Shown here: piece after piece, positions 37,467 through 52,435 of the stretch
Numbering within the stretch: the first letter of the stretch is position 1
How the letters are laid out: each line of letters opens with the position of its first letter
Source: Candidatus Melainabacteria bacterium
GTDB lineage: Bacteria > Actinomycetota > Actinomycetes > Mycobacteriales > Pseudonocardiaceae
NCBI GenBank assembly: GCA_963780635.1
Contig: CAWACW010000002.1
Location: 24,667-88,666 of the forward strand
Direction of reading: 5' to 3'
DNA: 64,000 nt
Translations under genes and position numbers: made by a program
Notes under the pieces: model-generated
Databases searched by the model: none
What the model saw: only the letters and a program-made list of their open reading frames with translations
What the model was told of the DNA's origin: nothing

Positions 37467-37470
37467 CCCG

Positions 37471-37839: not shown

Positions 37840-37850
37840 TCCAAAGGACG

Positions 37851-38439: not shown

Positions 38440-39813
38440 TCAGGTCAGCTGCTTCAGCCGCACCTTGAAGTGCCTCAATACTTTTGGCGCGTGCGTGATG
38501 CGATACCCCGGCACGCGTTCGGGGTGCTGGGCGATGCACGCGACGACGTCCGCCACGTACGCCAGGTGGCTCGCCGTGTAGACACGCCGCGGGATTGCCA
38601 GCCGAACGAGTTCCGCCGGTGCGGGGACGATCACCTCATGTTGTTCATTCAGTTGCGCCAGATACAGCGACCCCAGTTCACTACACCGGATCCCGCCATC
38701 CAGGTACAGCTGACACGCCAACGCGTGGCCCGGGAACCGGCCGGGTGGCAGGTGCGACAACAGCCGGCCCGCGTCGAGGTACACGGCGTGGATCCCGGTG
38801 GGCGCGACCGTGCTCACGCCCGCCTTGTTGATCATTTCGGCCAGCTGCGCGGTGGCGTTGGCGCGGGACCTCAGGTAATCGGGCTGCACAACTTCACGTA
38901 GGCCCTGTGCCAGACATTCCAGTTCATGCCCGGCCAAGCCACCGTAGGTTGTGAACCCCTCGGTGAGAATCAAGTCTTCCTCGCAGCGCTGGGCCAGGTC
39001 CGGGTCGCGCAGCCCGATGATCGCGCCTTCGGCCGACAGACCGTCCTTCTTCAGACTGGCCACGCAGCCATCCGCCAGCTGGAACGCTTCGGTGGCCACC
39101 TCCTGCGGGGTGCGGTCGGCGTAGCCGGACTCGCGTTGTATGACCAGCCACGCGTTTTCCGCAAATCGCGCCGCGTCAAGAAAGAACGACACACCATGCC
39201 GGCGACACAGGTCACCGGTGGCCCTGATGTTGGACATGGAGACGGGTTGACCGCCGCCCCCGTTGTTCGTGATCGTCAGTAGCACGAGACCGACCCGCGC
39301 CCCGTCCGGCCCCGACAGCAACTCTTCCAGGCCGGCCAGATCGATGTTGCCCTTGAACGGCTCCAGGCTGTCCAGGTCGGCCGCCTCGGGACAGGGCAGG
39401 TCACGTGCTTCGCAGCCGACGCGCTCCACGTTGCCCCGTGTGGTGTCGAAGTGCGTGTTGGACAGGCAGATCTGGCCGGGGCGCAGCAAGGCCGAGAACA
39501 GGATCCGTTCGGCGCCCCTGCCCTGGTGCACGGGCAGCACGTGCGGGTAGTGGGTCAGTTCCTGCACAGCATCGACGAAGCGGTACCACGAACGGGATCC
39601 CGCGTAGGACTCGTCAGCGAGGGAGGCAGCGGCGCGCTGCTGCACGGACACCGCACCCGTGCCGGAATCGGACAACAGGTCGATGGTCACCTTCTCGGAC
39701 CGCAGGCTGAAGACGTTGTAGTCGACCTCGGCCAACGCTTCCGCCCGTTGCGCTTCGGTCAGGATCGGGATCGGCTCGACGACACTGATGCGATACGGCT
39801 CGAACGGAGGCAT
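38440..39813 (-). CDS. tnaA: tryptophanase / beta-eliminating lyase (PLP-dependent)
   Basis: 457 aa. N-terminus FEPYRISVVEPIPILTEAQRAEAL, PLP-lysine motif ASLKKDGLS and C-terminal ..HFKVRL... Convergent with cvnD, 16 nt between stops. Confidence 0.88.
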   Translation of the reverse strand: MPPFEPYRISVVEPIPILTEAQRAEALAEVDYNVFSLRSEKVTIDLLSDSGTGAVSVQQRAAASLADESYAGSRSWYRFVDAVQELTHYPHVLPVHQGRGAERILFSALLRPGQICLSNTHFDTTRGNVERVGCEARDLPCPEAADLDSLEPFKGNIDLAGLEELLSGPDGARVGLVLLTITNNGGGGQPVSMSNIRATGDLCRRHGVSFFLDAARFAENAWLVIQRESGYADRTPQEVATEAFQLADGCVASLKKDGLSAEGAIIGLRDPDLAQRCEEDLILTEGFTTYGGLAGHELECLAQGLREVVQPDYLRSRANATAQLAEMINKAGVSTVAPTGIHAVYLDAGRLLSHLPPGRFPGHALACQLYLDGGIRCSELGSLYLAQLNEQHEVIVPAPAELVRLAIPRRVYTASHLAYVADVVACIAQHPERVPGYRITHAPKVLRHFKVRLKQLT

Positions 39814-39816
39814 GGC

Positions 39817-40935
39817 TCATCTTCCCAGCTGCGCGGGTATCCGCATAGGGCGGCGTGGCAACGAAGCCCGGTAAGCCTCGGAGGAAAGGTAGACGGTCGC
39901 TCCGGGCGCACCGTGAGCGGTCAACTTCACCGAAACGTGAGCGATCAACCCCACACCCGCCCGGAGCGGCCGCCTTGCCACAGCATCGATCGCCTCGTCG
40001 ATCACCGCCGTGTCGAGCCCGAAATGGTCCAGGACAGCGAGCACTCTTCGGCGTGCCTGCGCATCGTCGTCGACGTAGTCCCGGATCGGCAGATAGAGGC
40101 TGGACGTGCTCGGCCGGTCGGTATCGCCGGCGAGGAAGGTGTAGCCCGACATCGCCGGTCGTTTCGCCAACCGGCCTGCGCACCCGGTGAGCCGGAGTAG
40201 GTCGCGAACTCCCGTGTCATCGATGTCGGCGACAGCCCGTGCGGCACGGACGAGGGTCTCGCCGTCGGCGTCACGGTGTGCCACGTACAACTTGACTCGG
40301 GACTGCGGCCGAGCATGCAAATCCAGCGCGAAAAAGGAGAACCGGTCCAGCCGGTTGAGCTGGCCGGGCCGCACCCCGTGCGCCAGCGCGACGGCGTACG
40401 CGCGCTCCAGACCCAGACGCCGCAATGCCTCGGCTACCAGTTCGGGCGCACGCGCCCTTCCCTGCGCGTCAGGATTGAAATACACCTTCAGATCCGGCGA
40501 CTGTGCGCGCCGGAACACCATCGAAAACCACAGACCGAAGTCGCTGCGGAGCCGATCACCGAGTAGGACCTGCCGCGCCCGTTCGAAACGGTCGAGGGTC
40601 AGGTCGAAGCGTGTCGCGAGCGCGTCGACCAGGTTGAGCGCGGCCTGTAGGTTGGCCTGACGACTGGGACTGCCGGCTAACCGCTCGGCGAGAAGCCGCA
40701 GGGTTGGGGGGCCCGCTGCGTCGACCGCCACGGAAAACTCGACCGGTGTGTGATCGTCGGAGATGTCGGTCGGCCAGAGCGCAGGCTCACGCAGCGCACG
40801 CTCACCAATTGGATCGAGCAGCGCCCGCACACCATCCAACGGTGCTGTCGGGGGCAAACCGACTACCGCACAAAGCCGACGTAACTGCCCTTCAACGAGT
40901 TCGCCTAGTAAGCCCGCGCGACCGTGCATTGGCAA
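39817..40935 (-). CDS. DMATS-type aromatic (indole) prenyltransferase
   Basis: 372 aa with DISDDHTPVEFSV, DLKVYFNP, RVKLYV and SSLYLPIRDY, which are repeated strand motifs of the tryptophan dimethylallyltransferase fold. It sits 3 nt upstream of tnaA, as in the iptA-tnaA pair of Streptomyces sp. SN-593. Confidence 0.78.
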   Translation of the reverse strand: MPMHGRAGLLGELVEGQLRRLCAVVGLPPTAPLDGVRALLDPIGERALREPALWPTDISDDHTPVEFSVAVDAAGPPTLRLLAERLAGSPSRQANLQAALNLVDALATRFDLTLDRFERARQVLLGDRLRSDFGLWFSMVFRRAQSPDLKVYFNPDAQGRARAPELVAEALRRLGLERAYAVALAHGVRPGQLNRLDRFSFFALDLHARPQSRVKLYVAHRDADGETLVRAARAVADIDDTGVRDLLRLTGCAGRLAKRPAMSGYTFLAGDTDRPSTSSLYLPIRDYVDDDAQARRRVLAVLDHFGLDTAVIDEAIDAVARRPLRAGVGLIAHVSVKLTAHGAPGATVYLSSEAYRASLPRRPMRIPAQLGR

Positions 40936-40947
40936 CTCCGATCTCAG

Positions 40948-41322
40948 CTAGCCAGAAGTCTCCCACGCCATGCCCGGGTGCCGGTAGAATCCAACGAAGC
41001 CAACAGGTTCCGGTACCGCCAAGTTGATGATCTGCACTCCTGGATGCGGTAACCCGTAGCAGCCGTCCGAGCGATAAGGCCCAGCAACTGGCGGCCATGC
41101 GCAAACCTTCGTCTCGATGTCATATCCATTGGCCTTCGCAGGATCGTGGGTAGGCCGACCTGCGACCTGCCCAGGGCCGAACGGTCGAGTGGTGGGCTCG
41201 TCCGGCGGCCGAACGGCACGGTAGTGGCGCAGCGCGCCGTCGACGGACATGATCCGGGCTTGCACGACACGGCGCAGGACACTCCGGCGTGGTGTGCGCA
41301 TCTGGTCGAGGTCCTGCGTCAT
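40948..41322 (-). CDS. hypothetical protein (124 aa), first large ORF of the prenyl-indole operon
   Basis: ATG at 41322 with AGGAG upstream. Ends 12 nt before the prenyltransferase start. ..GYDIETKVCAWPPVAGPYRSDGCYGLPHPGVQIINLAVPEPVGFVGFYRHPG... It is the only credible part of the 669-aa tracked ORF 40948..42957. Confidence 0.5.
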   Translation of the reverse strand: MTQDLDQMRTPRRSVLRRVVQARIMSVDGALRHYRAVRPPDEPTTRPFGPGQVAGRPTHDPAKANGYDIETKVCAWPPVAGPYRSDGCYGLPHPGVQIINLAVPEPVGFVGFYRHPGMAWETSG

Positions 41323-41483
41323 CGCCTGCTCCTGGAGCGGGGTCCGGCGATGCGCAGGACATGGCCGTGGGTGCACACGTAGCACCGGTCGACCACCGTG
41401 TAGAGGTTGCATGTGTGGTCGCCGACGGGGAAGGTCAGGACCGGGCGGCCAGTCGACGCCGCAGGCGCGGTCGCCGCGGTCAT
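41319..41483 (-). CDS. small Cys/His-containing ORF (54 aa) translationally coupled to the 124-aa ORF
   Basis: AAGGGGG plus ATG at 41483. MTAATAPAASTGRPVLTFPVGDHTCNLYTVVDRCYVCTHGHVLRIAGPRSRSRR. The TGA overlaps the downstream ATG (ATGA). It falls below the ORF-track length cut-off. Confidence 0.35.
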   Translation of the reverse strand: MTAATAPAASTGRPVLTFPVGDHTCNLYTVVDRCYVCTHGHVLRIAGPRSRSRR

Positions 41484-41600
41484 CGCGCATCAACCCCCTT
41501 GCAGTCCAAGGACATCGCTGGCCTGGGCGGGCTTGTCCAGCCCGGCGATGCCGACGGGGATGGAACCCAGTGACCCGACCGATTTCGGAGGGTTTGAGCC

Positions 41601-41850
41601 GGGCCACCGGGGGCTGGCACGGCACCGTTGGTCGACCGCTCAATGGCCGAATCGGCTCGTCGGGATGATCGTGCAGGTGCCATGCCGTCGACCTTGCACG
41701 TTCCCGACCCTGCGCGATAGGGAGGATCCCGGGGATGTCAAGGGGATACTTAGGGGAGGATTGGAAGCCTCCCCATCCCACGCCGAGTAGTGGCGTGCGC
41801 ACTTTCCGTGCCACGATGAGCTGGTCAGATAACTGTGGAAAGGCAGCAGG
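41601..41850 (+). repeat. copy A of a roughly 250-bp duplicated non-coding element
   Basis: Aligns base-for-base with 51601..51847 in the same orientation. Shared blocks are CTGGCACGGCACCGTYGGTCGACCGCTC, TCGTCGGGATGATCG, GGGAGGAT and GGGATGTCAAGGGGATACTT-GGGGAG-ATTG-AAGCCTCCCC. Copy A ends exactly at the XRE ATG (41851). Confidence 0.9.
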
Positions 41851-43167
41851 ATGGTCACAGCCAATGATCAGCTTCGGCTGGCACGAGAGCGGACCGAATC
41901 GCCCTCCCAGCCGGGTACATGCCTGTCCCGCCCGGAGCTTGCGCAGCTGGTCAACTCCTATGTCGAGGACCATCACCCCGACCACCATGTCAATCTGGAC
42001 GCTAACTACATCGGCAAGCTCGAACGCGGCGTAATCCGCTGGCCGACCGATGACTACCGGGAGGCGTTGCGGTCGATCTTGGGAGTGTCCAGCGACGCCG
42101 CGTTGGGATTCACCAACAAACGCCGCGTGGTGGTAGAGGTGGTGGACGTGGATCGCAAAAAGTTCCTGCGCACCGCCGCACTCGGCGTTGGTGCGGTCGC
42201 TCTCGCGCCGGTCGCGGCGATGCTGCAGGGCGCTGAACCGACCCCGATTCCGGCCCGTGTCGGCGCTACGGAGATCGGCCAGATCCGCACTGCCGCACGG
42301 GTGTTCGCAGGTTGGGACCACAGTTACGGTGGTGGTCTCGCACGCGAGGCTGTGCTCGCGCAGCTGCAGTGGTCGGCTGGCCTGTTGGACGCGACCTGTC
42401 CGGCCCGGCTTCGCGGGCAGCTCTACAGCGCGGTGGGCTACCTCGCCCACACCTGTGGGTTCAACTCGTTCGACGCCTATGCCCATACCGACGCCCGCAA
42501 CACTTTCCGGTTCGCCTTTGCCTGCGCTGAAGAGGCCGACGATTGGCACCTGCGCGCCAAGGTGCTCTCCTCGATGGCCCGGCACGAGATCTGGACAGGC
42601 CACCCTGACGATGGCCTGACGCTGACGGAGCATGCGCTGGTGCGCGCCGACCGGCTGACCGCCACCGAACGCGCCATGCTGCACACCGCGCATGCACGCG
42701 CCCTGGCCAAGATGAATCGGGTCCGCGAGACATTGATCGCGGTCGGCACCGCCGACGACCAGTTCGCCCGTGCCAACCCAACCAACGATCCGCCGTGGAT
42801 GGTCTACTACGACGCTGCGCAGCACCACGGCGACACCGGTCACGCCCTGTTCGATCTGGCGATCCGCGGCCGGGCGGCGGGCGAGGCGGGCACGCGGTTG
42901 GCCGCGGCGGTCGCCGGGCATACCAATGCGTTCGCCCGCTCTCGGGCGATCTCGCAAACCAAGCTGGCGTCGCTGATGATGGCCACCGGTGACCCTCTCG
43001 AAGCCGTCACGATCGGCACTGCCGCACTCGAGGCGGCCGGCGCCATTCGGTCCCGCCGCGCCGCCGAGGACCTACGCGAACTGGCCCGCCACGCTGGCCG
43101 CCACTCGACGGTCCGCGAGGCCATCGCCCTGCGCCGCCGCATCACCGACCTGGTCCTCGCCCCGTGA
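41851..43167 (+). CDS. XRE-family HTH regulator with TPR-like C-terminal domain
   Basis: ..LSRPELAQLVNSYV..DANYIGKLERGVIRWP.. HTH. 438 aa. Divergent from the prenyl-indole operon. Confidence 0.82.
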   Translation: MVTANDQLRLARERTESPSQPGTCLSRPELAQLVNSYVEDHHPDHHVNLDANYIGKLERGVIRWPTDDYREALRSILGVSSDAALGFTNKRRVVVEVVDVDRKKFLRTAALGVGAVALAPVAAMLQGAEPTPIPARVGATEIGQIRTAARVFAGWDHSYGGGLAREAVLAQLQWSAGLLDATCPARLRGQLYSAVGYLAHTCGFNSFDAYAHTDARNTFRFAFACAEEADDWHLRAKVLSSMARHEIWTGHPDDGLTLTEHALVRADRLTATERAMLHTAHARALAKMNRVRETLIAVGTADDQFARANPTNDPPWMVYYDAAQHHGDTGHALFDLAIRGRAAGEAGTRLAAAVAGHTNAFARSRAISQTKLASLMMATGDPLEAVTIGTAALEAAGAIRSRRAAEDLRELARHAGRHSTVREAIALRRRITDLVLAP

Positions 43168-44078
43168 GCGTGCCACCGACCGAGCCATCCGCTGGGCAGT
43201 TGGACATCGGCACGAGCACGGTGCTGGCCGAGGCGTGTGCACAGGCTGGGCTGGATTTTCGTGGCGCCAAGCCGATCCGGCTCGGGGAGAACGCCATCGT
43301 CGGCCTGCCCGGCGGCATCGTGGTCCGCATAGCCCGACCTGGCCAGTTTGCCGCCGCCTCCCGCGAGGTCCAGATAGCCCGCTGGCTGGCCGAGCAGGGT
43401 GTGCCCGCCGTGCGTGTCGTCGAGGGCATCACGCAACCCGTCCACACGCTCGGGCGAGCGGTGACGTTCTGGCACGAGCTGCCGCCTCACGAACACGCCA
43501 CCCCAGCCCAGGTCGCCGACGCCTTGCGCCGGCTGCACGAGTTGCCGGTCCCGACCGGGTTCACCCTCGGACCGCTGGCGCCGTTCGTGCGGCTGGCCGA
43601 GCGCATCGAGGCCGCTACCACAGTGCCAGATGAGGACCGGACCTGGCTGCACCGGCACCTGAGCGCGCTGCAGGGTCGCTACGCAGAGCTGCCCGCCGGT
43701 CGGCCGCATCGCGTGATCCACGGCGACGCCTGGGTGGGCAACCTCGCGGCGACCGCCGACGGCCTCATCTGGCTGGACCTGGAACGCTGCGCGATCGGTC
43801 CACCCGAATGGGACTTGATCAACACCACCCTGCGCTACACCAGCTTCGCCTGGATCAGCGCCCGGGAGTACCGCGAATTCGGCCGCGGCTACGGCTACGA
43901 CGTCACCAACTGGCCCGGCTTCGCCCTGCTGCGCGACATCCGCGAACTGCGCATGACCTGCTACACCGCCCAGCACGCGGCCGAGAACCCGGCCGCCCAG
44001 ACGGAAGCACTGCTGCGGGTCGCTTGCCTGCGGGGTGAGCGCGGCCCCAGGCCGTGGCAGTGGACTCCCGCACCGTGA
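43164..44078 (+). CDS. aminoglycoside-phosphotransferase (APH)-fold kinase family protein
   Basis: RVIHGDAWVGNL (catalytic HGD..N) and LIWLDLERC (metal-binding D). The GTG at 43164 overlaps the XRE stop (GTGA). Confidence 0.82.
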   Translation: MSVPPTEPSAGQLDIGTSTVLAEACAQAGLDFRGAKPIRLGENAIVGLPGGIVVRIARPGQFAAASREVQIARWLAEQGVPAVRVVEGITQPVHTLGRAVTFWHELPPHEHATPAQVADALRRLHELPVPTGFTLGPLAPFVRLAERIEAATTVPDEDRTWLHRHLSALQGRYAELPAGRPHRVIHGDAWVGNLAATADGLIWLDLERCAIGPPEWDLINTTLRYTSFAWISAREYREFGRGYGYDVTNWPGFALLRDIRELRMTCYTAQHAAENPAAQTEALLRVACLRGERGPRPWQWTPAP

Positions 44079-44501
44079 CCGCACCGCGAACGTCCGCTCA
44101 CGGCCTTTGATCGATGGGCGCCTGGTCGCCGGCAGTATCAGATCGTCTCGCGCGCTTACGCGAACGCCACGCGCAAAGAAAGTGCTCGGCCTGGATGGCG
44201 AGTTCCCTGAACACGGCTAACGCCGATTCGCGTCGTTCCTGGGAAGTCCAGGCGAGCGCCAACTTCCGCGCGGCGCGTCGGTCACAGGAGACCATCAGGC
44301 GCCCTATCGCGAAGGACAACCCATCCGCACGTCTTACGACCACGTGGGCGGAGGGCTGCCAGCAGCCATCCAGACGAATGCGCAATCTTGGTCAGGTCCG
44401 ACAGCGCGCTCACGGGGGTTGCTGATCGTGGCCCACATCTGCAGCGATCGGACGCACTGGACACGGTCGCCGCGTCCCGCGGACTAAAGCAACCCCGCCA
44501 A

Positions 44502-44541
44502 CAGTGGCGGTACACCAACGTGTGCTGGTGTACCGCCACTG
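44502..44541 (-). terminator. perfect 16-bp hairpin (CAGTGGCGGTACACCA-N8-TGGTGTACCGCCACTG) downstream of the lanthipeptide operon
   Basis: Read directly. It lies about 110 nt after the methyltransferase stop (44649) on the minus strand. Confidence 0.5.
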
Positions 44542-44648
44542 TCTGGGCCGGCAGGGCCCAATTCGCCTTGTTGGTCCACGGTGAGCTGTCCAACGAGAGC
44601 TGCGACCTCCGCACTTCCTCCGTGTGACTGTTCAGCGCAGGGTTCTGA

Positions 44649-46745
44649 TCACCAGGTGATGGTTACGTGGGTGTGCGGTCGAACGATGTGGCTGGGCGAG
44701 GAGATTTGGCCATCGTGTGTGTCGATGTGTTGGGCGCGGATGGTGGGCTGGCTCGGGCGTTCCCGGTCCCAGCGGTGCAGGAGTTCGCCGACTTGGGCGG
44801 CGAGCCTCTCGCTGTCGGGTCCGTGCGCGACGACGCCCAGCTCGCTCACGCCGTCACCCTGGTCGCGCATAGCAAGGTAGGCCAGGGTGACGCCCTCGTA
44901 TATCGTCGCACCCGCCCAGCGCAGTGCGGGATCGACGAGACCGCTGTTGCGGGCCACGGGCCCGACGGACAGGCGGCCGAAGCTGCCGCTGCCGGTGGTC
45001 AGCAGCCACAGGTCGAGGTGCTCGGCCGGTTCGTCGTCGCGGATCTGGATGCCTGTCCACCGTGCGTGCGCCTCATAGGTGAGCGCGCGGCTGAGGACGG
45101 CTTCGTCGGGTGTGTCCTGCGCGTCGACGTGCAGGACCACGTCGTCGGTGAGTTGCACGAACTCTTCGTCGTGTTCAGTCGAGCCGCGCATGGGGACGAA
45201 GCCGCAGACGAGCGCTGAGTCACTGATCATCGAGTCTGGCTGGTCGACGTCGAATGCGATGGCTCGGGTGAGACCGCTGCCGTGCAGGCGCAGTGGCACG
45301 ACGATGCGGCCTCCGACGGCGAGTTGGTCCCACCAGGCGGCCGCGATGTCCCATGCCCCCGCGGTGATGATGAGCCTGTCGTAGGGTGCTCGGTCGGAGT
45401 GTCCCAGTGCGCCGTCGCCGCAGATCACCTCGACCTGCCTGTATCCGGCCGCAGCCAGTCCGCGGCGGGCGCCGGCGGCCAGGTCGTCATCAAGTTCGAT
45501 GGTGACGACGTTGCCGATGGCGCCGGTCAACTCCGCCAGCAGGGCGGCGTTGATGCCGGTCGCCGCGCCGATCTCCAGGATTCGGTGACCAGGCCGGACG
45601 CCGAGTTGTTCGAGCATCTCGGCCACGAGATTGGGGCTGGACGCTGAGGAGAGCGCCGTCCCGTTGTCCGCGCGCTTGGTCACGACTGGTTTGGGTGCGT
45701 ATGCGATGGAGGGGTCAACGCCGGGCAGAAACAGATGCCGCGGCACGGTGCGGAACGCACGCTCGACCTCAGGGGTGCGGAACGTGCCACGGCCACGGAT
45801 GTGGTCGGCGAGAGCCGTCCGAAGTGCCTGCGGATCGGGGGTCGTCGTGTCCATGGTCTGGGTAGTCACCGTTCTTACTGTAGGGGTCTGGGGATGGGCC
45901 GAGCGGCTTACCGACCCGATCGTGGATGTGTCGTGGCGGTGGAAAACCACTTGGCTGGCGGCAGTGGCCAGGAGGTATTGGTGTGTGGCCGAAACGCCCA
46001 AGCGGTTGAACGCGAACATCAGATGATGGACCAGCACGGCCCGCATTCCGCGTGTGAGGTCACCCCGGCGATACAACTCGGTGAGCGTGTTGCCGGCCCT
46101 GTCGAAGGAGGCGGGCCAGGCGGGCGCGGCGCGAAGCGGGCTGCCATCGGCATCGTCAGCGGCCGTGATGAGTCGCTGCACGGCCGCCACCAGTTGCGGC
46201 GATGGCACAACCTGCACGTCCTGTGCCCGGTGCGCGGCGAGTCGGGCCCAGGCGTCGCCCTGCTCGTACCAGTCCAGTCCGGCAGCACGCAGGAGCCGGG
46301 TGCCCAGGATCAGGCCGAGTTCGCGACGCTGATCCGGATGGTCCTCGGCCAGGTGGCGCAGGACATGGCGGCTGTCAGCGTGGAAGAGCGCGTGGGCAAT
46401 GTTCGTCGCCGCGGATCCGCCGAAGGCATAGATCTCGGGTTCATAGATGAGCGCGGCGTGGCGCTGGATTGCGCCTTGTGCCACGAGCGCCGCCGTCATC
46501 CTGCCCACGAACTCGGTTGCCCTCGCATCCCCGTCCTCCGTGGAACGGAACCGTACCCGCCACGATTTTCCTTTCCGGACGAACCACCAGCCGGCGATGG
46601 ATCCGTCGCTTTCCGCTTCGGTCACCAGAGGCCGCAGGCCCGTCACGGCCATGTGTTCGGCGGAGCGCCAGTCCTCACACCACAGGTCCACCTGCCGCCA
46701 CCGGGTCGGGGTGATGTGCCGGGTCGGGGTGATCTGCTCGGACAT
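44649..46745 (-). CDS. FxLD-system methyltransferase: SpaB_C-like domain fused to protein-L-isoaspartate(D-aspartate) O-methyltransferase
   Basis: The N-terminus AGWWFVRKGKSWRVRFRS matches the thiopeptide/lantibiotic-dehydratase C-terminal-type motif. The centre carries the PIMT SAM motif RILEIGAATGINAALLAEL and ..YDRLIITAGAWDI... 698 aa. Architecture matches TIGR04364-type proteins. Confidence 0.88.
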   Translation of the reverse strand: MSEQITPTRHITPTRWRQVDLWCEDWRSAEHMAVTGLRPLVTEAESDGSIAGWWFVRKGKSWRVRFRSTEDGDARATEFVGRMTAALVAQGAIQRHAALIYEPEIYAFGGSAATNIAHALFHADSRHVLRHLAEDHPDQRRELGLILGTRLLRAAGLDWYEQGDAWARLAAHRAQDVQVVPSPQLVAAVQRLITAADDADGSPLRAAPAWPASFDRAGNTLTELYRRGDLTRGMRAVLVHHLMFAFNRLGVSATHQYLLATAASQVVFHRHDTSTIGSVSRSAHPQTPTVRTVTTQTMDTTTPDPQALRTALADHIRGRGTFRTPEVERAFRTVPRHLFLPGVDPSIAYAPKPVVTKRADNGTALSSASSPNLVAEMLEQLGVRPGHRILEIGAATGINAALLAELTGAIGNVVTIELDDDLAAGARRGLAAAGYRQVEVICGDGALGHSDRAPYDRLIITAGAWDIAAAWWDQLAVGGRIVVPLRLHGSGLTRAIAFDVDQPDSMISDSALVCGFVPMRGSTEHDEEFVQLTDDVVLHVDAQDTPDEAVLSRALTYEAHARWTGIQIRDDEPAEHLDLWLLTTGSGSFGRLSVGPVARNSGLVDPALRWAGATIYEGVTLAYLAMRDQGDGVSELGVVAHGPDSERLAAQVGELLHRWDRERPSQPTIRAQHIDTHDGQISSPSHIVRPHTHVTITW

Positions 46746-46773
46746 GACAGTGTCTCTTCCTCCTGGTAATCGG

Positions 46774-48036
46774 TCAGTTCAGCAACAGGCAGGTCTGCCA
46801 GCCGGTTGTTCCAGCGGCGATGCTGTGCAGGGCGAGGGCCATGCCGGCGCCGCCGTCGATCAGTCCCGACGTGTCCGCGGACAGCGGATCCTCGGCGTGT
46901 TCCAGCAGCCTGTCGAGTAGGGGGGGCAGGTGCAGCCCGACAGTCGGTGCGCGGGCGTCACTGGCGACGGACCAGGTGGTCACGAGCAGCCCTGCCCAGC
47001 CGTGACACAGGCTGCGGTCGATGATGCTGCCCAGTTGACCCGGGTCAGCCAGACACCGCGCGAGGGCGTCTTCCGCGGCCTGCTGGCGGGTGTGGTCGTG
47101 CAGCGCCAGAGCGGCCAGTTGTTGAGCACGTGCCAGGCCGGGAGTGCCGTAGCACCAGGATGGCCGCCCTGGTCCGGTGTGGACCGGCCGGCCGGTGAGC
47201 AGCTCGCTGCCACCTATGTATTTGGGCCACGACGGCCCGGCCGGTGAGTCCTGGCGCCAGGTGTCCAACCAGGCACAGATCGCTTCGACGGCGCCGGTGT
47301 GACCGTCGACGGTGATGCCGTGGCGCAGCGCGAGGGCCAGCAGGGCCAACGGTCCGGCGATGCCATGGGCCATGCCGAAGTTGGCGTGCCCGCCACGGAA
47401 CCGGAGACACGTTCGCCGCGACGGGGCCTCAGCACTCCACCAACCCGGAGCGTGGCGCCCGGCCTCGTCATCGGCGCACACCGGTGACGTGAGATGCACC
47501 AGGTACTCCAGGATCCGGCCCATCAACTCGCCGTGCGGATCACGGTGCAACAGATGCGCGCCCAGCCCGGTGAGGCCACGGACCAGATCGAATTCGGACA
47601 GTTCCGGTCGCGCCCGGGCATTGATCCGCGCATGAGCAGCGTCCACGCGTCGGTGGCCGAGTTCCGTGACCGCGGAGTCGAGGTGCGTCCGCGCCCGGCG
47701 GTAGCGCTGCGGAACGGCGAGTGTGAGGGCGAAGGCGACCGCGGGCGCGCCGAACCACAGGCCGGCGCCTCGGCCGGCGCTGAGATCCTCGGCAGTCGCA
47801 CGGGTCAGCCACGCGTGCACGCGCTCCTGGCTGCCGTGCCCGTCGCGGGCGCGGACACCGTGCAGGACGGCGATGCCGGCCGCTCCGCTGGACAACGACT
47901 GGTGTCGCCAGCGGCGGCTGCTCAAGCCGCGATCGTCGGATGGTTGTAGCGGTGGTGGCGATGCCAGCGCATCGCTGATCCGGGCCGACATCGCCTCAGC
48001 GACGTGCAGGCGGCGTCCGTCGTGCAGGCTCGTCAC
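46774..48036 (-). CDS. lanC: lanthionine synthetase C-family cyclase (LanC)
   Basis: NFGMAHGIAGP, SWCYGTPGLA and RSLCHGWAGLL, the zinc-ligand Cys/His motifs of LanC. Start overlaps the lanB stop. Confidence 0.9.
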   Translation of the reverse strand: MTSLHDGRRLHVAEAMSARISDALASPPPLQPSDDRGLSSRRWRHQSLSSGAAGIAVLHGVRARDGHGSQERVHAWLTRATAEDLSAGRGAGLWFGAPAVAFALTLAVPQRYRRARTHLDSAVTELGHRRVDAAHARINARARPELSEFDLVRGLTGLGAHLLHRDPHGELMGRILEYLVHLTSPVCADDEAGRHAPGWWSAEAPSRRTCLRFRGGHANFGMAHGIAGPLALLALALRHGITVDGHTGAVEAICAWLDTWRQDSPAGPSWPKYIGGSELLTGRPVHTGPGRPSWCYGTPGLARAQQLAALALHDHTRQQAAEDALARCLADPGQLGSIIDRSLCHGWAGLLVTTWSVASDARAPTVGLHLPPLLDRLLEHAEDPLSADTSGLIDGGAGMALALHSIAAGTTGWQTCLLLN

Positions 48037-51000
48037 AGTTCTTCCTCGGCGGCTGCGGACCGCGCTTTCCAGGCCAGGGCGACCGCGCGGGCGACACGGT
48101 GGGACAGCGCTTCCTCGTCGGGGTCGATCCCGCGGGCGCGCACGTGGTGCATGTGCAGCAGCGATACCAGGACCGAGGACGGCGTGATGTGGCTGTTGTC
48201 GGCGCTAAGACACCCTGCATACTGAGTCGCGGCGTGGCGCCGCTGGGCCCAGGCGTGCGCGATCTGACCGCCGTTGGGCAGTGTCAACAAAGCGGGCGTA
48301 GCCGCGTTCACGTCGGCCAACTCGACGGCCTCACGGACCACAGTGCGGTCGCCTATCGGTGCGTGACCGGTGAGGTCGGCGTGCTCGAGCAGCCATCGCA
48401 TGCCCCGCGACCGGCTTCCGGTCATGGCGCAGGCCAGGTCCACCAGGCTGGCTGCGATGAGCGCCCGCGCAGACACCGCGCGCGTGTTCGCCTGGGCGAG
48501 GAGTTGGATGAGGACGGCAGTGGAGTCCGCAGCGAACAGTGCCTCGGCTGCGCCCATCGTCGCGCCGCTGCCGTACCGCGCGGTTTCCGGTCGGTAGGTG
48601 CTCAGCGTGAGGTCGCCGACCAGGCCACGCCGCCGCAGGTCGGCCGCCCACACCCCGACGCGGTTGGCGGCCTGCCCGTACTCGAGTAGGCCCTGCAGGC
48701 GTAGGCGCAGCTGCGGGGTCGGGGTCCGGTACCGCGCGAACCACCACATCGGTGGTTCGTCCCAGGTTGCGAGCAGGGTGGGCAGATGCTGGGTGAGGAT
48801 CGTGTCGACGATGTCGGGATGCCCGTAGACCTGGGCGTTGAGGACCGGTGATCCTGGCAGCGCGCCGTGCTCTGCCCCGACGATCGGCAGCGGCGCCGAG
48901 GTGGCCAGGACCGCGGGCGGTTGGGCCGGCGGTGCGGTCGCGGCCAGCGGAATGGTGATCTCGTGCGGGCGGCCGTCGAACCAGCCGTGGTCGGCGGCGG
49001 TGGGTGCCTCAGCCACGGTGAAGGCGCCGCCGAGCTTGTGCACGTGCTCGCGCAGCACCGCCAGATCCAGCGGGTCGTCCAGGTTCAAGCGCAGTCTGCG
49101 ATCCCCCGTGCCCACATACACCGCGGCCGGTAGGCCCAGACGATCCCGCAGCGCGCCCAGCGATGCTGTCCAGTCGCTGCGCGAGGCTGCTGGGCCCGGC
49201 AACCGGCCGGGCGATATCCGCCACCGAGCGGCGGCCAGGATGCTGCGGCCGTAGCGGACCCGGGGCCGGAACGGCAGGCAGTCGGCTGCGCCCCAGTCGA
49301 ACACCGACACGGCCGCGTTCGTCGCTCGCGGAATCTCGAACAGCACACGCGCGAGTGCGGGCATGGCGTGCCGCGCCGCGGCGTGGGTCAGAACCGGCTC
49401 CACAACGCGCCGCCGTGACAGGGACACCAGATACATCCGGTGGTGGTCGGCCGTGACCGCGAGATCACCGACCGGGATGCGGTCGTGCGTGTCGTGATGC
49501 TCGGCCACGGAGATCAGGTGGGGCAGCACTCGTGGTGCGTGCAGCACGTTCTGGGCGTGAGAGTTATGTGCAGGAAACGACAGTTGAGCGGGTATCGCGC
49601 CCTCGACCCCTACGGGCAGCTGCCGGTAGAGCCCGATCATACGCGCTCGATCGGCGTCGGGAAGAAGGTCGAGGAATCGACCGCTGGTGGCGATGGCCGT
49701 CGCGGCGATCCCGGTCACGGCGAGTGTGAACGCTCCCTGGGTCAGCGCCGACGTCGTGTGCGCTCGGACATCCACGCACAGGTCGATATGCGGAACCGGC
49801 CGCACCGAGGCGCCGTCACCAGCGGCCAGGCTGTCGATCATGTCCTCGTCGAGGACGACTTCCTGCGCGCCATCCACGGCCGCCTGCTGGGCGAGCGCCA
49901 GCAGGCGCTCATCGCGGCGCGGCAACCACGCCGTGGCGGCAGGGTCCGGCGGCTGTGCGTAGTGACGGGGAAACCCGAGGCCGGCCGTCGGATCGACGAG
50001 GTCGGTGACCGCGACGACGGCGTGGGGGCCATAGCGGTCCAGGAACCTTGTGTGAAAGTCGCGCCAGGCTGGATGACCGTGCGGATGCGGGGTCAGCCTG
50101 AGCAACGCGCCGGCCGCGGCCTCGGCTTCGATCGCCACCTGCGCGGGCAGCGCCGTCGTGCAGCCCAGCCGCAGATCGACCATCAACGGCTGCTCTACGG
50201 CGCCAGGCACGGCGCGCATCCGCGCGGCGACCGCGTGCCTGGCCCGTCCGTCGGCCCAACCCAATGCGGCGTCCGCTGCAAGCAGTTGTGTTCGGATCGC
50301 ACGGAGCTCGCCGACCAACAGTGCGACCTCCGGCGCTCCGATGGCGTCCACTGCGGGCAGCTGATCCACGACGTGGCCGAGCCCATCGGCGATCATCGAG
50401 GGAGGCCGCAGCGAGGTGATCAGTACGCCGTAGGCGATCAGTTCACGCAGCATGGCTTCGACCGCAGAACGTGGCGCGGTCGGGAACGCCGCCGCGATCT
50501 GGTCGATCAGGTCGGCGACGCGGATGGGTGACCGTGTGGCGCGCAGGACCACCTGGACCGCTCGGCTGTGCCGAACCGACACTTCGACCGTCGCCCCGGC
50601 GTGGGAGTCATCAGCGCGTGGTCCGCCGGGTACCACCACGCGGTCACCGCGCACGACCGCCAGGGTGTTCGACGTGACGGACAGATGGGGCCACAGTGTC
50701 GGACAGGCTTCCAACAGCGTGACCACCGCGGCAAGCCACGCCGCATCGGCTCGTGTCCGGGTCTGGTGATCGTCGGTCCATCGCACCGAGGTCTGGTGGC
50801 CGAAGCGCAGCGCCGCCACACCGGCGAAGGTCCCGAACGGTGTGGCCCGCCCGCGCAGCCGTACCAGGTACCGGGCAGCTGACATGACCATGCGCCGCGC
50901 CTGCCCAGGGCTCGGACGCGGGTCCTCCCCCATCGCCTCGACGCGGGCGGCCAGTGTTGGGCTGGCGATGGCGACGGCCTGGGCAAGCGACGGCTGTGAC

Positions 51001-51164
51001 CACACCTGGGCAAGCCATCCGCACAACGCGTCGCCGTCCATGCCGAGGTTGTTGCCGACGTTGATGCCGACGCTCAGGTCGGGCCACGGCACGGAATCCG
51101 CCTCGCCGGCATACGTGCTGGCACGCAGCAGCGCCGCGTCAATGTGCCGATACTGGCGCGCCAC
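48033..51164 (-). CDS. lanB: class I lanthipeptide dehydratase (LanB)
   Basis: 1043 aa. An N-terminal Lant_dehydr_N-like region is followed by the C-terminal elimination domain with MWWFARYRTPTPQLRLRL. Confidence 0.9.
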   Translation of the reverse strand: MARQYRHIDAALLRASTYAGEADSVPWPDLSVGINVGNNLGMDGDALCGWLAQVWSQPSLAQAVAIASPTLAARVEAMGEDPRPSPGQARRMVMSAARYLVRLRGRATPFGTFAGVAALRFGHQTSVRWTDDHQTRTRADAAWLAAVVTLLEACPTLWPHLSVTSNTLAVVRGDRVVVPGGPRADDSHAGATVEVSVRHSRAVQVVLRATRSPIRVADLIDQIAAAFPTAPRSAVEAMLRELIAYGVLITSLRPPSMIADGLGHVVDQLPAVDAIGAPEVALLVGELRAIRTQLLAADAALGWADGRARHAVAARMRAVPGAVEQPLMVDLRLGCTTALPAQVAIEAEAAAGALLRLTPHPHGHPAWRDFHTRFLDRYGPHAVVAVTDLVDPTAGLGFPRHYAQPPDPAATAWLPRRDERLLALAQQAAVDGAQEVVLDEDMIDSLAAGDGASVRPVPHIDLCVDVRAHTTSALTQGAFTLAVTGIAATAIATSGRFLDLLPDADRARMIGLYRQLPVGVEGAIPAQLSFPAHNSHAQNVLHAPRVLPHLISVAEHHDTHDRIPVGDLAVTADHHRMYLVSLSRRRVVEPVLTHAAARHAMPALARVLFEIPRATNAAVSVFDWGAADCLPFRPRVRYGRSILAAARWRISPGRLPGPAASRSDWTASLGALRDRLGLPAAVYVGTGDRRLRLNLDDPLDLAVLREHVHKLGGAFTVAEAPTAADHGWFDGRPHEITIPLAATAPPAQPPAVLATSAPLPIVGAEHGALPGSPVLNAQVYGHPDIVDTILTQHLPTLLATWDEPPMWWFARYRTPTPQLRLRLQGLLEYGQAANRVGVWAADLRRRGLVGDLTLSTYRPETARYGSGATMGAAEALFAADSTAVLIQLLAQANTRAVSARALIAASLVDLACAMTGSRSRGMRWLLEHADLTGHAPIGDRTVVREAVELADVNAATPALLTLPNGGQIAHAWAQRRHAATQYAGCLSADNSHITPSSVLVSLLHMHHVRARGIDPDEEALSHRVARAVALAWKARSAAAEEEL

Positions 51165-51256
51165 GACTGTGCCCCCGTCCTACGAAATCGTTGTGCCGTT
51201 AGGGAAAACCGGTGCCCGGTCCAGCCGGCCTCGTAGTGGGACCGGGCACCGGCGAC

Positions 51257-51388
51257 TCAGCAGTCCCCGTCTTTCCGCGTGTCGCATCCGTCGTCGGTGC
51301 TACTCAGCAACGCGGCGTCGGGCCGTGCAGCAGCGACGATCGTGACGTCGAGGTCAAGTTCGCCGTCGGCAACGTGAGGGTTATCCAT
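51257..51388 (-). CDS. lanA: FxLD-family lanthipeptide precursor (43 aa)
   Basis: MDNPHVADGELDLDVTIVAAARPDAALLSSTDDGCDTRKDGDC. AGGAGG lies 6 nt upstream of the ATG at 51388. The leader has LDLDV in place of FxLDV. The C-terminal part has 2 Ser, 2 Thr, 2 Cys and several Asp. It lies 92 nt upstream of lanB. Confidence 0.8.
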   Translation of the reverse strand: MDNPHVADGELDLDVTIVAAARPDAALLSSTDDGCDTRKDGDC

Positions 51389-51600
51389 GGTTGTCCTCCT
51401 GTCGATCTCTCCCGGTTCCCCATTGGCCCGGGCAGTTCTGCGGTCGAAATCCCCGTGCGTCCGCGGCACCGGCACCTTCCCGTACAGGCCGACCGTGACG
51501 GCAATCAAGCCGAGATCGCTCGCCGCGGCGGCGTACGGCTGCGGTGCGCGTAACCGTGCTGGGCACGCAAGCGCTACGTCGTACGGCGCTGGGGCGTGTC

Positions 51601-51847
51601 GGCCACTGGGACTGGCACGGCACCGTCGGTCGACCGCTCGATGGCCGATCCGGGTCGTCGGGATGATCGCGTTGGTGCCACGCCATCGACAATGCACGCT
51701 CACGGCCCGGCGCGGAAGGGAGGATTCAAGGGATGTCAAGGGGATACTTCGGGGAGAATTGCAAGCCTCCCCTTCCGGCGCCGAGCAGCGGCATCTCCAC
51801 GATGTGCGTCCGGATGGCCTGGTCAGACGCCTGCGGAAAACGGCGTC
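51601..51847 (+). repeat. copy B of the roughly 250-bp duplicated element
   Basis: See copy A. It lies 212 nt upstream (minus-strand sense) of the lanA start. No XRE gene follows it. Confidence 0.9.
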
Positions 51848-51932
51848 CGCCACCGTCACCGGGCCCGGCCGGACTCACCCGTGCCGAGATCAGGTACTCA
51901 CGCGCCAGCCGGAGCAGCAGCGTCGGCGAGTC

Positions 51933-51972
51933 GTGGCGGTGGACGCGCCCGCGCGGGCGCGTCCACCGCCAC
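51933..51972. repeat. perfect 40-bp palindrome GTGGCGGTGGACGCGCCCGC|GCGGGCGCGTCCACCGCCAC
   Basis: Read directly. The two halves are exact reverse complements with no loop. Confidence 0.9.
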
Positions 51973-52135
51973 GAATACTGCACGACCAAATACTGGCTAC
52001 TTGACGGTCTTCGTCCCGCAGCCCACCGTCCGAGCGCCCGCGGTCGACCCCGCACCGACCCCGCTCGTGACAGAGTCTGCCACACCGCCGTCCCCCGACG
52101 TGGTCACCGAGCCGGTTAGCGCGCCGGGTGGGAAA

Positions 52136-52338: not shown

Positions 52339-52435
52339 ATCTCCTGTCGGGCGGCCTGCTCCGCGTCCTGGCCGGGGTCGCCGACTGGGCCGGCTGGCCA
52401 TAGATGGCGGCTGCACAACCGTGCTCGGTCGGCCA

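What the first reader, a model, noticed from the sequence alone, without database searches (positions are those of the whole stretch)
41601..41850. A roughly 250-bp element is duplicated in direct orientation upstream of both minus-strand biosynthetic operons
41601..41850 and 51601..51847 align without large gaps. Identity is roughly 75-85% by eye and was not computed. Copy A fills the divergent gap between the XRE gene (ATG at 41851) and the small-ORF/DMATS/tnaA operon, whose first start at 41483 is 117 nt away. Copy B lies 212 nt upstream of the lanthipeptide precursor start (51388) and has no XRE partner. Shared substructure includes a near-inverted pair GGCACGGCACC ... GGTGCC(A/-)(T/C)GCC flanked by GTCGAC sites. 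It also includes a conserved GGGAGGAT-N5-6-ATG and a hairpin GGGGAG(G/A)ATTG(G/C)AAGCCTCCCC. I do not recognise it as any known riboswitch, leader or IS end. It could be a shared operator/promoter cassette placing two unrelated metabolite operons under one regulator, a structured 5' RNA, or the footprint of a segmental duplication.
Basis: seen in the sequence. Interest (0 to 1): 0.72.

Follow-up and report, generated by a model that had tools for sequence, protein, structure and literature searches.

The report
Duplicated regulator control region before lanthipeptide operon
The 240-bp repeat is the two-way promoter and probable binding-site region of a conserved regulator gene, and a second copy without the regulator gene sits in front of a lanthipeptide operon, probably putting two biosynthetic operons under one regulator; a tidy but fairly ordinary case of regulatory DNA being copied.

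Summary
The repeat is real. Window 41610-41841 and 51608-51839 match over 232 nt at 79.3% identity with no gaps (E about 1e-58), and there are exactly two copies in the 64 kb.

Copy A is the native divergent control region of an NsdA-family XRE/TPR regulator gene (41851-43167) and its APH-like kinase partner. A 45-bp core is conserved about 80 nt upstream of orthologues of this regulator. The core consists of GGGGAKG repeats, a 22-bp palindrome GGGGAGGnTTGCAAnCCTCCCC and an invariant TTGAC. It is present in all 21 related sequences examined from Pseudonocardiaceae genomes and metagenome contigs (about 18 independent loci), and only one hit per genome was found.

Copy B is the only copy found that has no regulator gene next to it. 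It keeps the core and the side facing the minus strand. It has decayed on the regulator-facing side: it differs at 13 of 47 otherwise invariant positions there against 5 of 104 elsewhere (p = 1.6e-4), and it has lost the extended -10-like motif.

In several related genera this regulator pair lies divergent from methyltransferase-type class I lanthipeptide operons. Copy B therefore probably keeps that regulatory link in trans.

No Rfam match, no covariation and no conserved plus-strand ORF support an RNA or peptide reading. Protein binding and promoter activity are inferred, not shown.

The parts
41601..41850 (.). Copy A: the native divergent control region between the p54 operon (minus strand) and the NsdA-family XRE gene (plus strand). 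The ungapped repeat is 41610-41841.
   Evidence: Both flanks are orthologous to L004/L005/L023.
51599..51848 (.). Copy B: the copy with no regulator gene beside it, 212 nt upstream of lanA. The ungapped repeat is 51608-51839.
   Evidence: No XRE remnant. Flanks have no homologue in any fetched locus.
41731..41774 (.). Conserved core of copy A: GGGGATGTCAA and GGGGATACTTA repeats followed by the 22-bp palindrome GGGGAGGATTGGAAGCCTCCCC (41753-41774). Candidate operator array.
   Evidence: Present in all 21 related sequences examined. 31 columns are invariant in the 20-row alignment. Dyad symmetry was counted. The profile also hits itself on the reverse strand.
51729..51772 (.). Conserved core of copy B, with the palindrome GGGGAGAATTGCAAGCCTCCCC at 51751-51772. 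It has 3 mismatches to copy A in 44 nt.
   Evidence: (72.1 bits, E = 1.9e-21).
41736..41741 (-). TTGACA on the minus strand, a -35-like hexamer facing the minus-strand operon. The copy B equivalent is 51734-51739.
   Evidence: TTGAC is invariant in all 20 aligned sequences and in L026 and L027. Promoter function is inferred. The consensus scan found no canonical promoter.
41809..41817 (+). Extended -10-like motif TG-C-CACGAT for the XRE gene. In copy B (51807-51815) it reads CG-T-CCGGAT, so both the TG and the A at hexamer position 2 are lost.
   Evidence: The TG and the hexamer A2 and T6 are kept in all 19 XRE-linked rows of the alignment and are lost only in copy B. Coordinates.
41480..41683 (-). 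Leader or upstream ORF of the minus-strand transcript. Its start codon lies inside the repeat. The first ~28 codons (MAPxRS..IERS..PAPGGP) are shared with copy B, L004, L005 and L023.
   Evidence: The start-codon column is conserved in all lineages. The reading frame is not conserved beyond ~30 codons.
51574..51681 (-). Copy B counterpart of the leader ORF (GTG start, 35 codons). It diverges where the repeat ends.
41851..43167 (+). NsdA-family XRE-HTH/TPR-like regulator, the candidate binder of the core.
   Evidence: NCBIfam NF053720 at 283 bits (cut-off 75). Homologues are named XRE family in their sources. The AlphaFold2 model shows an HTH, a linker and a TPR-like domain, pLDDT 85.8.
43164..44078 (+). 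APH-like phosphotransferase whose start overlaps the end of the regulator gene. It is a conserved partner of the regulator.
   Evidence: Pfam PF01636. It follows the XRE orthologue in every locus that extends far enough to show it.
38440..41483 (-). Operon downstream of copy A: p54 (41319-41483), a truncated p112 (about 41191-41322), DMATS-like (39817-40935) and tryptophanase-like (38440-39813).
44649..51388 (-). Operon downstream of copy B, a class I lanthipeptide cluster: lanA (51257-51388), lanB (48033-51164), lanC (46774-48036) and an elimination-domain/FxLD-system methyltransferase fusion (44649-46745).
   Evidence: Pfam. NCBIfam TIGR04364 at 474 bits. Precursor peptide read.

Best explanation
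The repeat is a bidirectional promoter-operator cassette.

Copy A is the native intergenic control region of a conserved two-gene unit, an NsdA-family XRE-HTH/TPR regulator plus an APH-like kinase, together with the operon transcribed divergently from it. Its 45-bp core lies in the spacer between the two inferred promoters. The core has two direct GGGGAKG-type repeats about 11 bp apart, a 22-bp palindrome and an invariant TTGAC. It is most likely bound by a dimeric or oligomeric HTH protein, and the adjacent regulator is the obvious candidate. From that position the protein could control both divergent promoters.

Copy B is a 232-240-bp paralogue of this cassette. It comprises the core, the minus-facing promoter and the first ~95 nt of the minus-strand leader. 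It now sits in front of the lanthipeptide operon, so that operon and the p54/DMATS/tryptophanase operon would answer to the same regulator. Its regulator-facing promoter has nothing to drive and has decayed.

Shown: the duplication, the conservation of the core and its linkage to the regulator gene, and the asymmetric decay of copy B.

Inferred: protein binding, which protein binds, promoter positions, and whether regulation is positive or negative.
For: 1. Duplication. 232 nt, 79.3% identity, ungapped, E about 1e-58, with only two copies in the window.

2. Linkage to the regulator gene. The core pattern hit 13 Pseudonocardiaceae genomes, once each, plus 2 metagenome contigs. Wherever the held DNA reached far enough, it lay about 80 nt upstream of an XRE orthologue. 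The core is also present upstream of every XRE orthologue fetched through the protein: L001, L002, L004, L005, L023, L024, L025 and L026, with a variant form in L027.

3. Copy A is the native copy. Both of its flanks are orthologous to L004, L005 and L023.

4. Asymmetric constraint on copy B. A-B identity is 86.5% in the left part, 83.5% in the middle and 65.7% in the XRE-proximal part. At positions where the other four close relatives agree, B differs at 13 of 47 in the XRE-proximal third against 5 of 104 elsewhere (Fisher p = 1.6e-4). The four XRE-linked copies differ at 0-4 of about 35 in that third. The extended -10-like motif TGyNAsrAT keeps its key bases (TG, A2, T6) in all 19 XRE-linked rows and has lost them only in B.

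5. Dyad symmetry of the core. The seven outer pairs are Watson-Crick in 17-20 of 20 sequences, with one G-C to T-A double change in Lentzea. The T/A pair near the centre holds in 18 of 20.

6. Concerted change of the repeat units. In the distant Kibdelosporangium orthologue the units read GGGGCAGATTG and AGGGCAGATTG. This is what is expected of sites that evolve together with the protein that binds them.

7. The regulator belongs to a DNA-binding family. It matches NsdA family NF053720 at 283 bits against a cut-off of 75. NsdAsr binds promoter DNA in ChIP-seq and EMSA (PMC12243394).

8. An independent regulatory link. The same regulator/kinase pair lies directly divergent from PCMT-type class I lanthipeptide operons in Lentzea, Saccharothrix, Actinosynnema and Amycolatopsis.
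Against: - There are no binding, transcript or transcription-start data.
- The simple sigma-70 consensus scan finds no promoter in either copy. No convincing -10 follows the minus-strand TTGACA.
- The palindrome could equally be an RNA or DNA hairpin. The symmetry counts do not separate the two readings.
- The protein that binds could be some other regulator.
- Copy B's palindrome carries a G-to-A change at a nearly invariant position (GGGGAGA).
- The lanthipeptide operon here shares only 37-39% LanB identity with the operons that lie divergent from the regulator in other genera. The ancestral link is therefore at the level of cluster type, not orthology.
- The greater similarity of B to A in the left and middle parts could partly reflect gene conversion rather than selection.
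Confidence: 0.6

Rival explanations
1. Copy B is a dead scar of a rearrangement. For example, a tandem duplication or a recombination event separated the lanthipeptide cluster from the regulator's divergent promoter, the duplicated regulator gene was then deleted, and the remaining piece has no present function.
For: The DNA to the right of copy B looks decayed: a perfect 44-bp palindrome at 51931-51974 and a LigD primase-polymerase fragment. Joining the two copies end to end would recreate the arrangement 'lanthipeptide operon <- control region -> regulator' seen in other genera. Copy A's own operon has also been rearranged, with p112 truncated at about 41189.
Against: Decay is strongly uneven. 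The core and the minus-facing 165 nt of B are as conserved as in copies that still have the regulator gene (5 of 104 deviations). Only the regulator-facing third has drifted (13 of 47; p = 1.6e-4). The core of B still scores 72 bits against the family profile, compared with 78 for A. Neutral decay at the 34% seen in the right third would not leave 3 mismatches in 44 nt.
Confidence: 0.15
2. The element encodes a structured cis-acting RNA: a leader, an attenuator or a riboswitch-like element on the minus-strand transcripts, or a 5' UTR or small RNA on the plus strand. The duplication copied this RNA device.
For: - There are two inverted repeats: 41616-41626 with 41676-41686, and 41753-41774.
- The Lentzea palindromes show a G-C to T-A double change.
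- The left 74-83 nt of the repeat lie downstream of the inferred minus-strand start and are well conserved between A and B (86.5%).
- A long conserved leader of about 200 nt precedes p54 in A, L004, L005 and L023.
- The minus strand of copy B folds with z = -1.9.
Against: - No Rfam family matches at gathering score, and nothing in the element matches at E <= 1.
- Folding z-scores are -0.9 to -1.9, which is not significant.
- RNAalifold on five leaders gives 0 compensatory pairs and a covariation penalty.
- The family-wide conserved core lies upstream of both inferred promoters.
- The left half is absent from most lineages that keep the core.
Confidence: 0.1
3. The repeat is conserved because it encodes a small protein, either the plus-strand ORF starting at 41735/51733 or the minus-strand upstream ORF starting at 41683/51681.
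For: Plus-strand ORFs of 99 and 128 codons start at a conserved ATG. The minus-strand ORF shares about 28 N-terminal codons across five sequences. Its three indels are 12, 12 and 3 nt. It ends in an ATGA overlap with the next gene in winA, L005 and L024.
Against: - The plus-strand ATG is AGG in Saccharothrix violaceirubra and ACG in Prauserella, and the frame is not kept.
- A-B mismatches show no codon periodicity (20:17:11).
- Pfam finds nothing.
- The frame of the minus-strand ORF differs between A/L005 and L004/L023 after about 30 codons, while the DNA stays conserved.
- A-B differences in its first 25 codons fall 4:2:4 over codon positions (read directly from the positions).
Confidence: 0.05
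4. The element is the end or remnant of a mobile element such as a MITE or an insertion sequence.
For: It occurs twice in direct orientation 9,998 bp apart, and the DNA beside copy B is decayed.
Against: Only one hit per genome was found in the 13 relatives, always at the same distance from the same gene. Neither terminal inverted repeats nor target-site duplications were seen on reading the ends, and no transposase gene lies beside it. Copy A's flanks are syntenic with relatives.
Confidence: 0.02

Closest known systems
NsdA/NsdB family regulators of Streptomyces (pleiotropic regulators of antibiotic production and differentiation)
   Same: The 41851 protein matches the NsdA-family model NF053720 at 283 bits against a cut-off of 75. 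It has an XRE-type N-terminal region plus a TPR-like domain. NsdAsr binds promoter DNA in ChIP-seq and EMSA and represses secondary metabolism (PMC12243394).
   Different: It is not the NsdA or NsdB equivalog (126 and 130 bits against cut-offs of 830 and 700). It is paired with an APH-like kinase and lies beside operons for ribosomally made, modified peptides (RiPPs). The NsdAsr paper contains no mention of a motif or a footprint. The 45-bp core found here is only a candidate binding site.
Operators shared by divergent promoters of cluster-situated regulators and repeated before several target operons (for example the ARE boxes of gamma-butyrolactone receptors or TetR-type operators; from general knowledge)
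   Same: A palindromic site of about 22 bp lies between divergent genes, one of which encodes the regulator. A further copy lies before another operon of the same biosynthetic region.
   Different: Here a whole block of about 240 bp was copied (operator, promoter and leader), not just a short box that arose by point mutation. The regulator family and the site sequence are unrelated to those systems.
RNPP-type HTH-TPR quorum-sensing regulators (PlcR/PapR, Rgg/SHP, Rap/Phr)
   Same: The architecture is an XRE-type HTH plus a TPR-like domain. There is a palindromic box upstream of the targets and a short ORF transcribed divergently from the regulator gene.
   Different: There is no sequence match to any solved structure. 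Foldseek gives only generic TPR similarity, with Rap proteins at TM about 0.41 among many unrelated TPR proteins. There is no evidence of a secreted peptide signal. Membership is not claimed.
Class I lanthipeptide clusters with a PCMT-type O-methyltransferase (FxLD system; OlvA-type)
   Same: The operon behind copy B has LanB, LanC and an elimination-domain/methyltransferase fusion (TIGR04364 at 474 bits). Walker et al. 2020 describe this kind of cluster as the most abundant class I type in Actinobacteria (PMC7268733).
   Different: This describes the cargo operon, not the repeat itself. As far as I could find, an association of these clusters with an NsdA-like regulator and kinase pair has not been described.

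Membership tests
Any described RNA family (Rfam 15: riboswitch, leader, small RNA) | Score at or above the family's gathering threshold against a covariance model | tested here: not met
   0 matches in the whole window at gathering score. Nothing inside either copy at E <= 1.
Structured cis-regulatory RNA (undescribed) | Compensatory base changes that support a consensus fold, and folding energy beyond shuffled controls | tested here: not met
   RNAalifold on five leaders gives 0 compensatory pairs and a covariation term of +3.48. z-scores are -0.9 to -1.9. There is one G-C to T-A change in the core palindrome, which fits a DNA site equally well. The sample is small, so this is a weak negative.
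Palindromic operator of an HTH regulator in a divergent promoter region | Dyad symmetry of the site | tested here: met
   The 22-bp site GGGGAGGnTTGCAAnCCTCCCC has outer pairs that are Watson-Crick in 17-20 of 20 sequences. The profile hits itself on the reverse strand.
Palindromic operator of an HTH regulator in a divergent promoter region | Conserved linkage and fixed distance to the regulator gene across genomes | tested here: met
   In every related locus whose held DNA reaches the gene, the core lies about 80 nt upstream of the XRE orthologue. Only one pattern hit was found per genome.
Palindromic operator of an HTH regulator in a divergent promoter region | Position relative to the promoters (between or overlapping the -35/-10 elements) | tested here: inconclusive
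   The conserved extended -10-like motif at 41809-41817 and the invariant minus-strand TTGAC at 41737-41741 would put the palindrome centre near -60 and -57. The consensus promoter scan found nothing and no start sites are known.
Palindromic operator of an HTH regulator in a divergent promoter region | Specific binding by the regulator protein | not testable with these tools
   Needs EMSA, DAP-seq or ChIP with the 41851 protein.
NsdA family TPR-like regulatory protein (the adjacent gene) | Score above the curated NCBIfam cut-off over the full length | tested here: met
   NF053720: 283 bits against a cut-off of 75, residues 24-430 matching model positions 11-432 of 432. The equivalog models for NsdA and NsdB themselves are not met (126 against 830; 130 against 700).
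Mobile element end / MITE | Multiple dispersed copies, terminal inverted repeats, target-site duplication | tested here: not met
   Only one hit per genome in 13 relatives, always beside the same gene. Copy A has syntenic flanks. Neither terminal inverted repeats nor target-site duplications were seen on reading the sequence.
Small protein-coding gene on the plus strand (ATG 41735) | Conserved start codon, conserved frame and codon-position bias | tested here: not met
   The start is AGG or ACG in two relatives. Mismatches fall 20:17:11 over the three phases. No Pfam hit.

The most novel reading that the evidence does not exclude
The 45-bp GGGGAKG array would be the first defined recognition element of an NsdA-family HTH-TPR regulator. 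The regulator, its kinase partner and the cassette would then be a portable controller that has been joined, at nearly the same breakpoint, to several different RiPP (ribosomally made, modified peptide) operons across Pseudonocardiaceae. These include FxLD lanthipeptide, radical-SAM/SPASM and a large B12-binding-domain protein operon. In this genome the cassette alone was copied to bring a second operon under control. The TPR domain or the kinase might sense a peptide product, giving RNPP-like autoinduction.
Probability: 0.2. Interest if true: 0.6.

Novelty: new member of a known kind. Interest (0 to 1): 0.35.

Why it matters
If the inference holds, it provides a concrete candidate DNA site for an NsdA-family regulator; the one NsdA study read here reports DNA binding but no motif. 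It also gives a clear natural example of a regulon growing by copying a whole promoter-operator block, and the decay of the unused side shows which parts matter.

On the practical side, it predicts that one regulator/kinase pair controls both a prenylated-indole-type operon and a methyltransferase-type lanthipeptide operon. That could help activate these usually silent clusters. The principle itself, a shared operator in front of several operons, is well known.

Tried and rejected
- Rfam at gathering score on the whole window and at E <= 1 on both copies gave nothing in the element.
- Single-sequence folding of both strands of both copies gave non-significant z-scores.
- RNAalifold on five minus-strand leaders found no covariation.
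- The sigma-70 promoter and terminator scan gave no hits in either region.
- The plus-strand small ORF (ATG 41735) was rejected because its start and frame are not conserved.
- tblastn for an XRE remnant beside copy B found none.
- blastn and tblastx of copy B's flanks against all fetched loci gave no real homology; the tblastx hits are high-GC noise.
- A search for a third copy, including upstream of the paralogous regulator at 54200, found none.
- The metagenome scan with the core pattern added only two loci, one of them identical to L004 over the region compared.
- phmmer of the regulator against PDB sequences gave no hit. Foldseek gave only generic TPR matches.
- Three calls to the count of structure pairs failed on string length or bracket balance. 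The pair counts were done in Python instead.
- The organism's name could not be recovered.
- A G-quadruplex reading of the G-runs was considered but not tested. Copy A has only three G-runs of three or more in the core, so I did not pursue it.

Full report
**Observation.** The repeat is real and well beyond chance.
- The repeat finder reports 41610-41841 against 51608-51839: 232 nt, 79% identity, ungapped. It is the only sizeable repeat in the 64-kb window.
- blastn gives 79.3% identity with E = 8e-59 and sharp ends on both sides.
- The window has 68% G+C. Protein matches place it in the Pseudonocardiaceae.

**Gene context**.
- Copy A lies between a minus-strand operon and a plus-strand gene pair.
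- The minus-strand operon holds a 54-aa protein (p54, 41319-41483), a truncated p112, a DMATS-like prenyltransferase (39817-40935) and a tryptophanase-like lyase (38440-39813).
- The plus-strand pair is an XRE-type regulator (41851-43167) and an APH-like phosphotransferase (43164-44078) whose start overlaps the regulator's end.
- The regulator matches the NCBIfam NsdA-family model at 283 bits against a cut-off of 75. It does not reach the NsdA or NsdB equivalog cut-offs.
- An AlphaFold2 model (pLDDT 85.8) shows an N-terminal helical HTH region, a disordered linker (residues 90-117) and a TPR-like solenoid. Foldseek returns only generic TPR proteins.
- Copy B lies 212 nt upstream of lanA. The operon behind it is lanA, lanB (48033-51164), lanC (46774-48036) and an elimination-domain/FxLD-system methyltransferase fusion (44649-46745; TIGR04364 at 474 bits).
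- This is the methyltransferase-bearing class I lanthipeptide type that Walker et al. describe as the most abundant in Actinobacteria (PMC7268733).
- No XRE remnant lies beside copy B. To its right are a perfect 44-bp palindrome (51931-51974) and a LigD fragment.

**What the element is.**
- The regulator has orthologues at 59-83% identity across Pseudonocardiaceae.
- I fetched loci for several of them. I also scanned one genome per species with a pattern taken from the conserved core.
- That scan gave 13 true hits: six Saccharothrix, three Lentzea, two Actinosynnema, and one each of Prauserella, Pseudonocardia and Amycolatopsis. There was one hit per genome.
- Wherever the held DNA reached far enough, the hit lay about 80 nt upstream of an XRE orthologue followed by the APH gene.
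- The metagenome scan added two more loci, one of them identical to L004 over the region compared.
- The strict pattern undercounts. Amycolatopsis thermoflava carries the core with one changed base and was found only through the protein.
- In a 20-sequence alignment the invariant part is GGGA-GTCAAGGGGA-N3-T(T)-N-GGGGA, followed by the closing CCTCCCC. Further right lies a conserved GTG-y-N-A-s-r-A-T block.
- Copy A is therefore the native upstream region of this regulator gene. Its flanks are orthologous to L004, L005 and L023 on both sides: 72-78% over 420 nt on the left, and the XRE gene itself on the right.

**Anatomy of the core** (coordinates).
- Positions 41731-41774 hold two direct units about 11 bp apart, GGGGATGTCAA and GGGGATACTTA. 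In most genera these read GGGGAGGATTC.
- They are followed by a 22-bp palindrome at 41753-41774, consensus GGGGAGGnTTGCAAnCCTCCCC.
- The seven outer palindrome pairs are Watson-Crick in 17-20 of 20 sequences. Lentzea shows a G-C to T-A double change. A T/A pair close to the centre holds in 18 of 20.
- The minus strand carries an invariant TTGAC(A) at 41736-41741.
- On the plus strand, 41809-41817 reads TG-C-CACGAT. The TG and the hexamer's A2 and T6 are kept in all 19 copies linked to a regulator gene.
- This fits an extended -10 element and would put the XRE transcription start near 41824, with the Shine-Dalgarno sequence GGAAAGG at 41837-41843.
- The palindrome would then be centred near -60 from that start. 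It would be near -57 from a minus-strand start, if TTGACA is a -35 element.
- These promoter assignments are inferences. The consensus scan reports none, and I could not find a convincing minus-strand -10.
- In Kibdelosporangium (regulator 59% identical) the same position holds GGGGCAGATTG and AGGGCAGATTG. The repeat units have changed together there.

**The left half of the repeat (41610-41683).**
- It is shared only by copy A, copy B and the closest relatives L004, L005 and L023. L024 keeps a shorter piece.
- It begins at a minus-strand start codon whose alignment column is conserved in all lineages.
- In Lentzea, Saccharothrix and Actinosynnema that codon starts a DUF4254 gene. The gene heads the operon DUF4254-p120-p112-methyltransferase-lanA-lanB.
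- In the window's lineage the same codon starts a leader whose first ~28 codons are conserved (MAPxRS..IERS..PAPGGP). Its indels are 12, 12 and 3 nt.
- The frame is not conserved further on, even though the DNA stays conserved. A-B differences show no third-position bias.
- I leave open whether this is a translated upstream ORF or just a leader.
- RNAalifold gives no covariation for the inverted repeat at 41616-41626 and 41676-41686.

**Is copy B functional or a scar?**
- Identity between A and B is 86.5% in the left part, 83.5% in the middle and 65.7% in the XRE-proximal part.
- The orthologous pairs A-L004 and L004-L005 keep 79-84% in the XRE-proximal part.
- I then looked at positions where the other four close sequences agree. 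B deviates at 13 of 47 in the XRE-proximal third, but at only 5 of 104 in the remainder (Fisher p = 1.6e-4).
- In the core and the left part, B is no more deviant than A.
- B alone has lost the TG and the A2 of the -10-like motif.
- The core of B scores 72 bits against the family profile, compared with 78 for A.
- This is the pattern expected if B is still used toward the minus strand (lanA) and is no longer used toward the plus strand, where there is no gene to drive.
- In the constrained parts B is closer to A than A is to its orthologues. It therefore arose within this lineage, or has been homogenised with A.

**Why the lanthipeptide link is credible.**
- The same regulator/kinase pair lies directly divergent from methyltransferase-type class I lanthipeptide operons in Lentzea, Saccharothrix, Actinosynnema and Amycolatopsis thermoflava.
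- In other contigs it faces a radical-SAM/SPASM gene (L024), a p54 operon ending in a 721-aa protein with a weak B12-binding domain hit (L004, L005, L023), or other genes (L025, L027).
- In this window the lanthipeptide operon lies downstream of the regulator pair and converges on it, so it cannot share the native control region. Copy B supplies a second one.
- LanB is only 37-39% identical to those of the other genera. The link is therefore at the level of cluster type, not orthology.

**Rivals.**
- Structured RNA: no Rfam hit in the element even at E <= 1. Folding z-scores are unremarkable. There is no covariation. The core lies upstream of both inferred promoters.
- Plus-strand small ORF: the start codon and the frame are not conserved, and mismatches show no codon periodicity.
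- Mobile element: only one hit per genome was found in relatives, always beside the same gene.
- Dead scar: contradicted by the asymmetric decay, though not excluded.

**Verdict.**
The RNA reading is not supported.
- It is a new example of a known kind of arrangement, with a previously undescribed candidate site for an NsdA-family regulator.
- Binding, transcription starts and the direction of regulation remain to be shown.

Noticed in passing
window 51931-51974: A perfect 44-bp palindrome (TCGTGGCGGTGGACGCGCCCGCG / CGCGGGCGCGTCCACCGCCACGA) lies about 90 nt to the right of copy B. It is followed by a LigD primase-polymerase fragment at 52186-52809, of which only 45 residues match. This looks like a terminator or a recombination junction in decayed DNA.
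   Followed up: partly
window 41189-41322 and 38440-40935: The p112 gene that follows p54 in relatives is cut off after about 44 codons. Homology of copy A's left flank to L004, L005 and L023 stops at about 41189. The DMATS and tryptophanase genes therefore appear to have been grafted onto an older p54 operon.
   Followed up: partly
L001, L002, L009, L011, L014, L016, L017, L026 (divergent side of the XRE orthologue): The NsdA-like regulator and APH-like kinase pair lies divergent from a methyltransferase-type class I lanthipeptide operon in four genera. The usual order is DUF4254-p120-p112-PCMT-lanA-lanB; some loci hold only part of it or skip the first genes. In other contigs the pair faces a radical-SAM/SPASM gene (L024) or a p54 operon ending in a 721-aa protein with a weak B12-binding domain hit (L004).
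   Followed up: partly
window 54200-55597: A second NsdA-family paralogue (27% identical; NF053720 at 115 bits) is followed by an overlapping 157-aa ORF. The conserved core is absent upstream of it.
   Followed up: partly
window 34390-38423: A conservon-like operon: a NIT-domain histidine kinase (34390-37038), a Roadblock/LC7 protein (37035-37466), an unscanned ORF (37471-37839) and an ATP_bind_1 GTPase-like protein (37851-38423). It lies directly upstream of the tryptophanase gene.
   Followed up: no
L027 3900-3975 (Kibdelosporangium banguiense): In this distant orthologous locus the repeat units of the core read GGGGCAGATTG and AGGGCAGATTG instead of GGGGAGGATTC. TTGAC and the -10-like GACGAT are kept. 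The repeat units have changed together.
   Followed up: partly
window 41480-41683 (minus strand); L005, L024: The minus-strand upstream ORF ends in an ATGA overlap with the start of the next gene in winA (p54), L005 (p54 fusion) and L024 (radical-SAM gene, where the upstream ORF is only 12 codons). It does not do so in L004 or L023. Possible translational coupling; unexplained.
   Followed up: partly
window 41484-41609; L004, L005, L023: The roughly 125 nt between the repeat and the p54 start are conserved at the DNA level in relatives, including the block GACGGGGATGGAACCCAGTGACCCGACC. That block is read in different frames in different genomes. It may be a conserved leader element lying outside the duplicated part.
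   Followed up: no
window 44501-44542: An imperfect 42-nt palindrome (86%) lies between the converging ends of the APH gene and the methyltransferase fusion gene. It is probably a bidirectional terminator.
   Followed up: no
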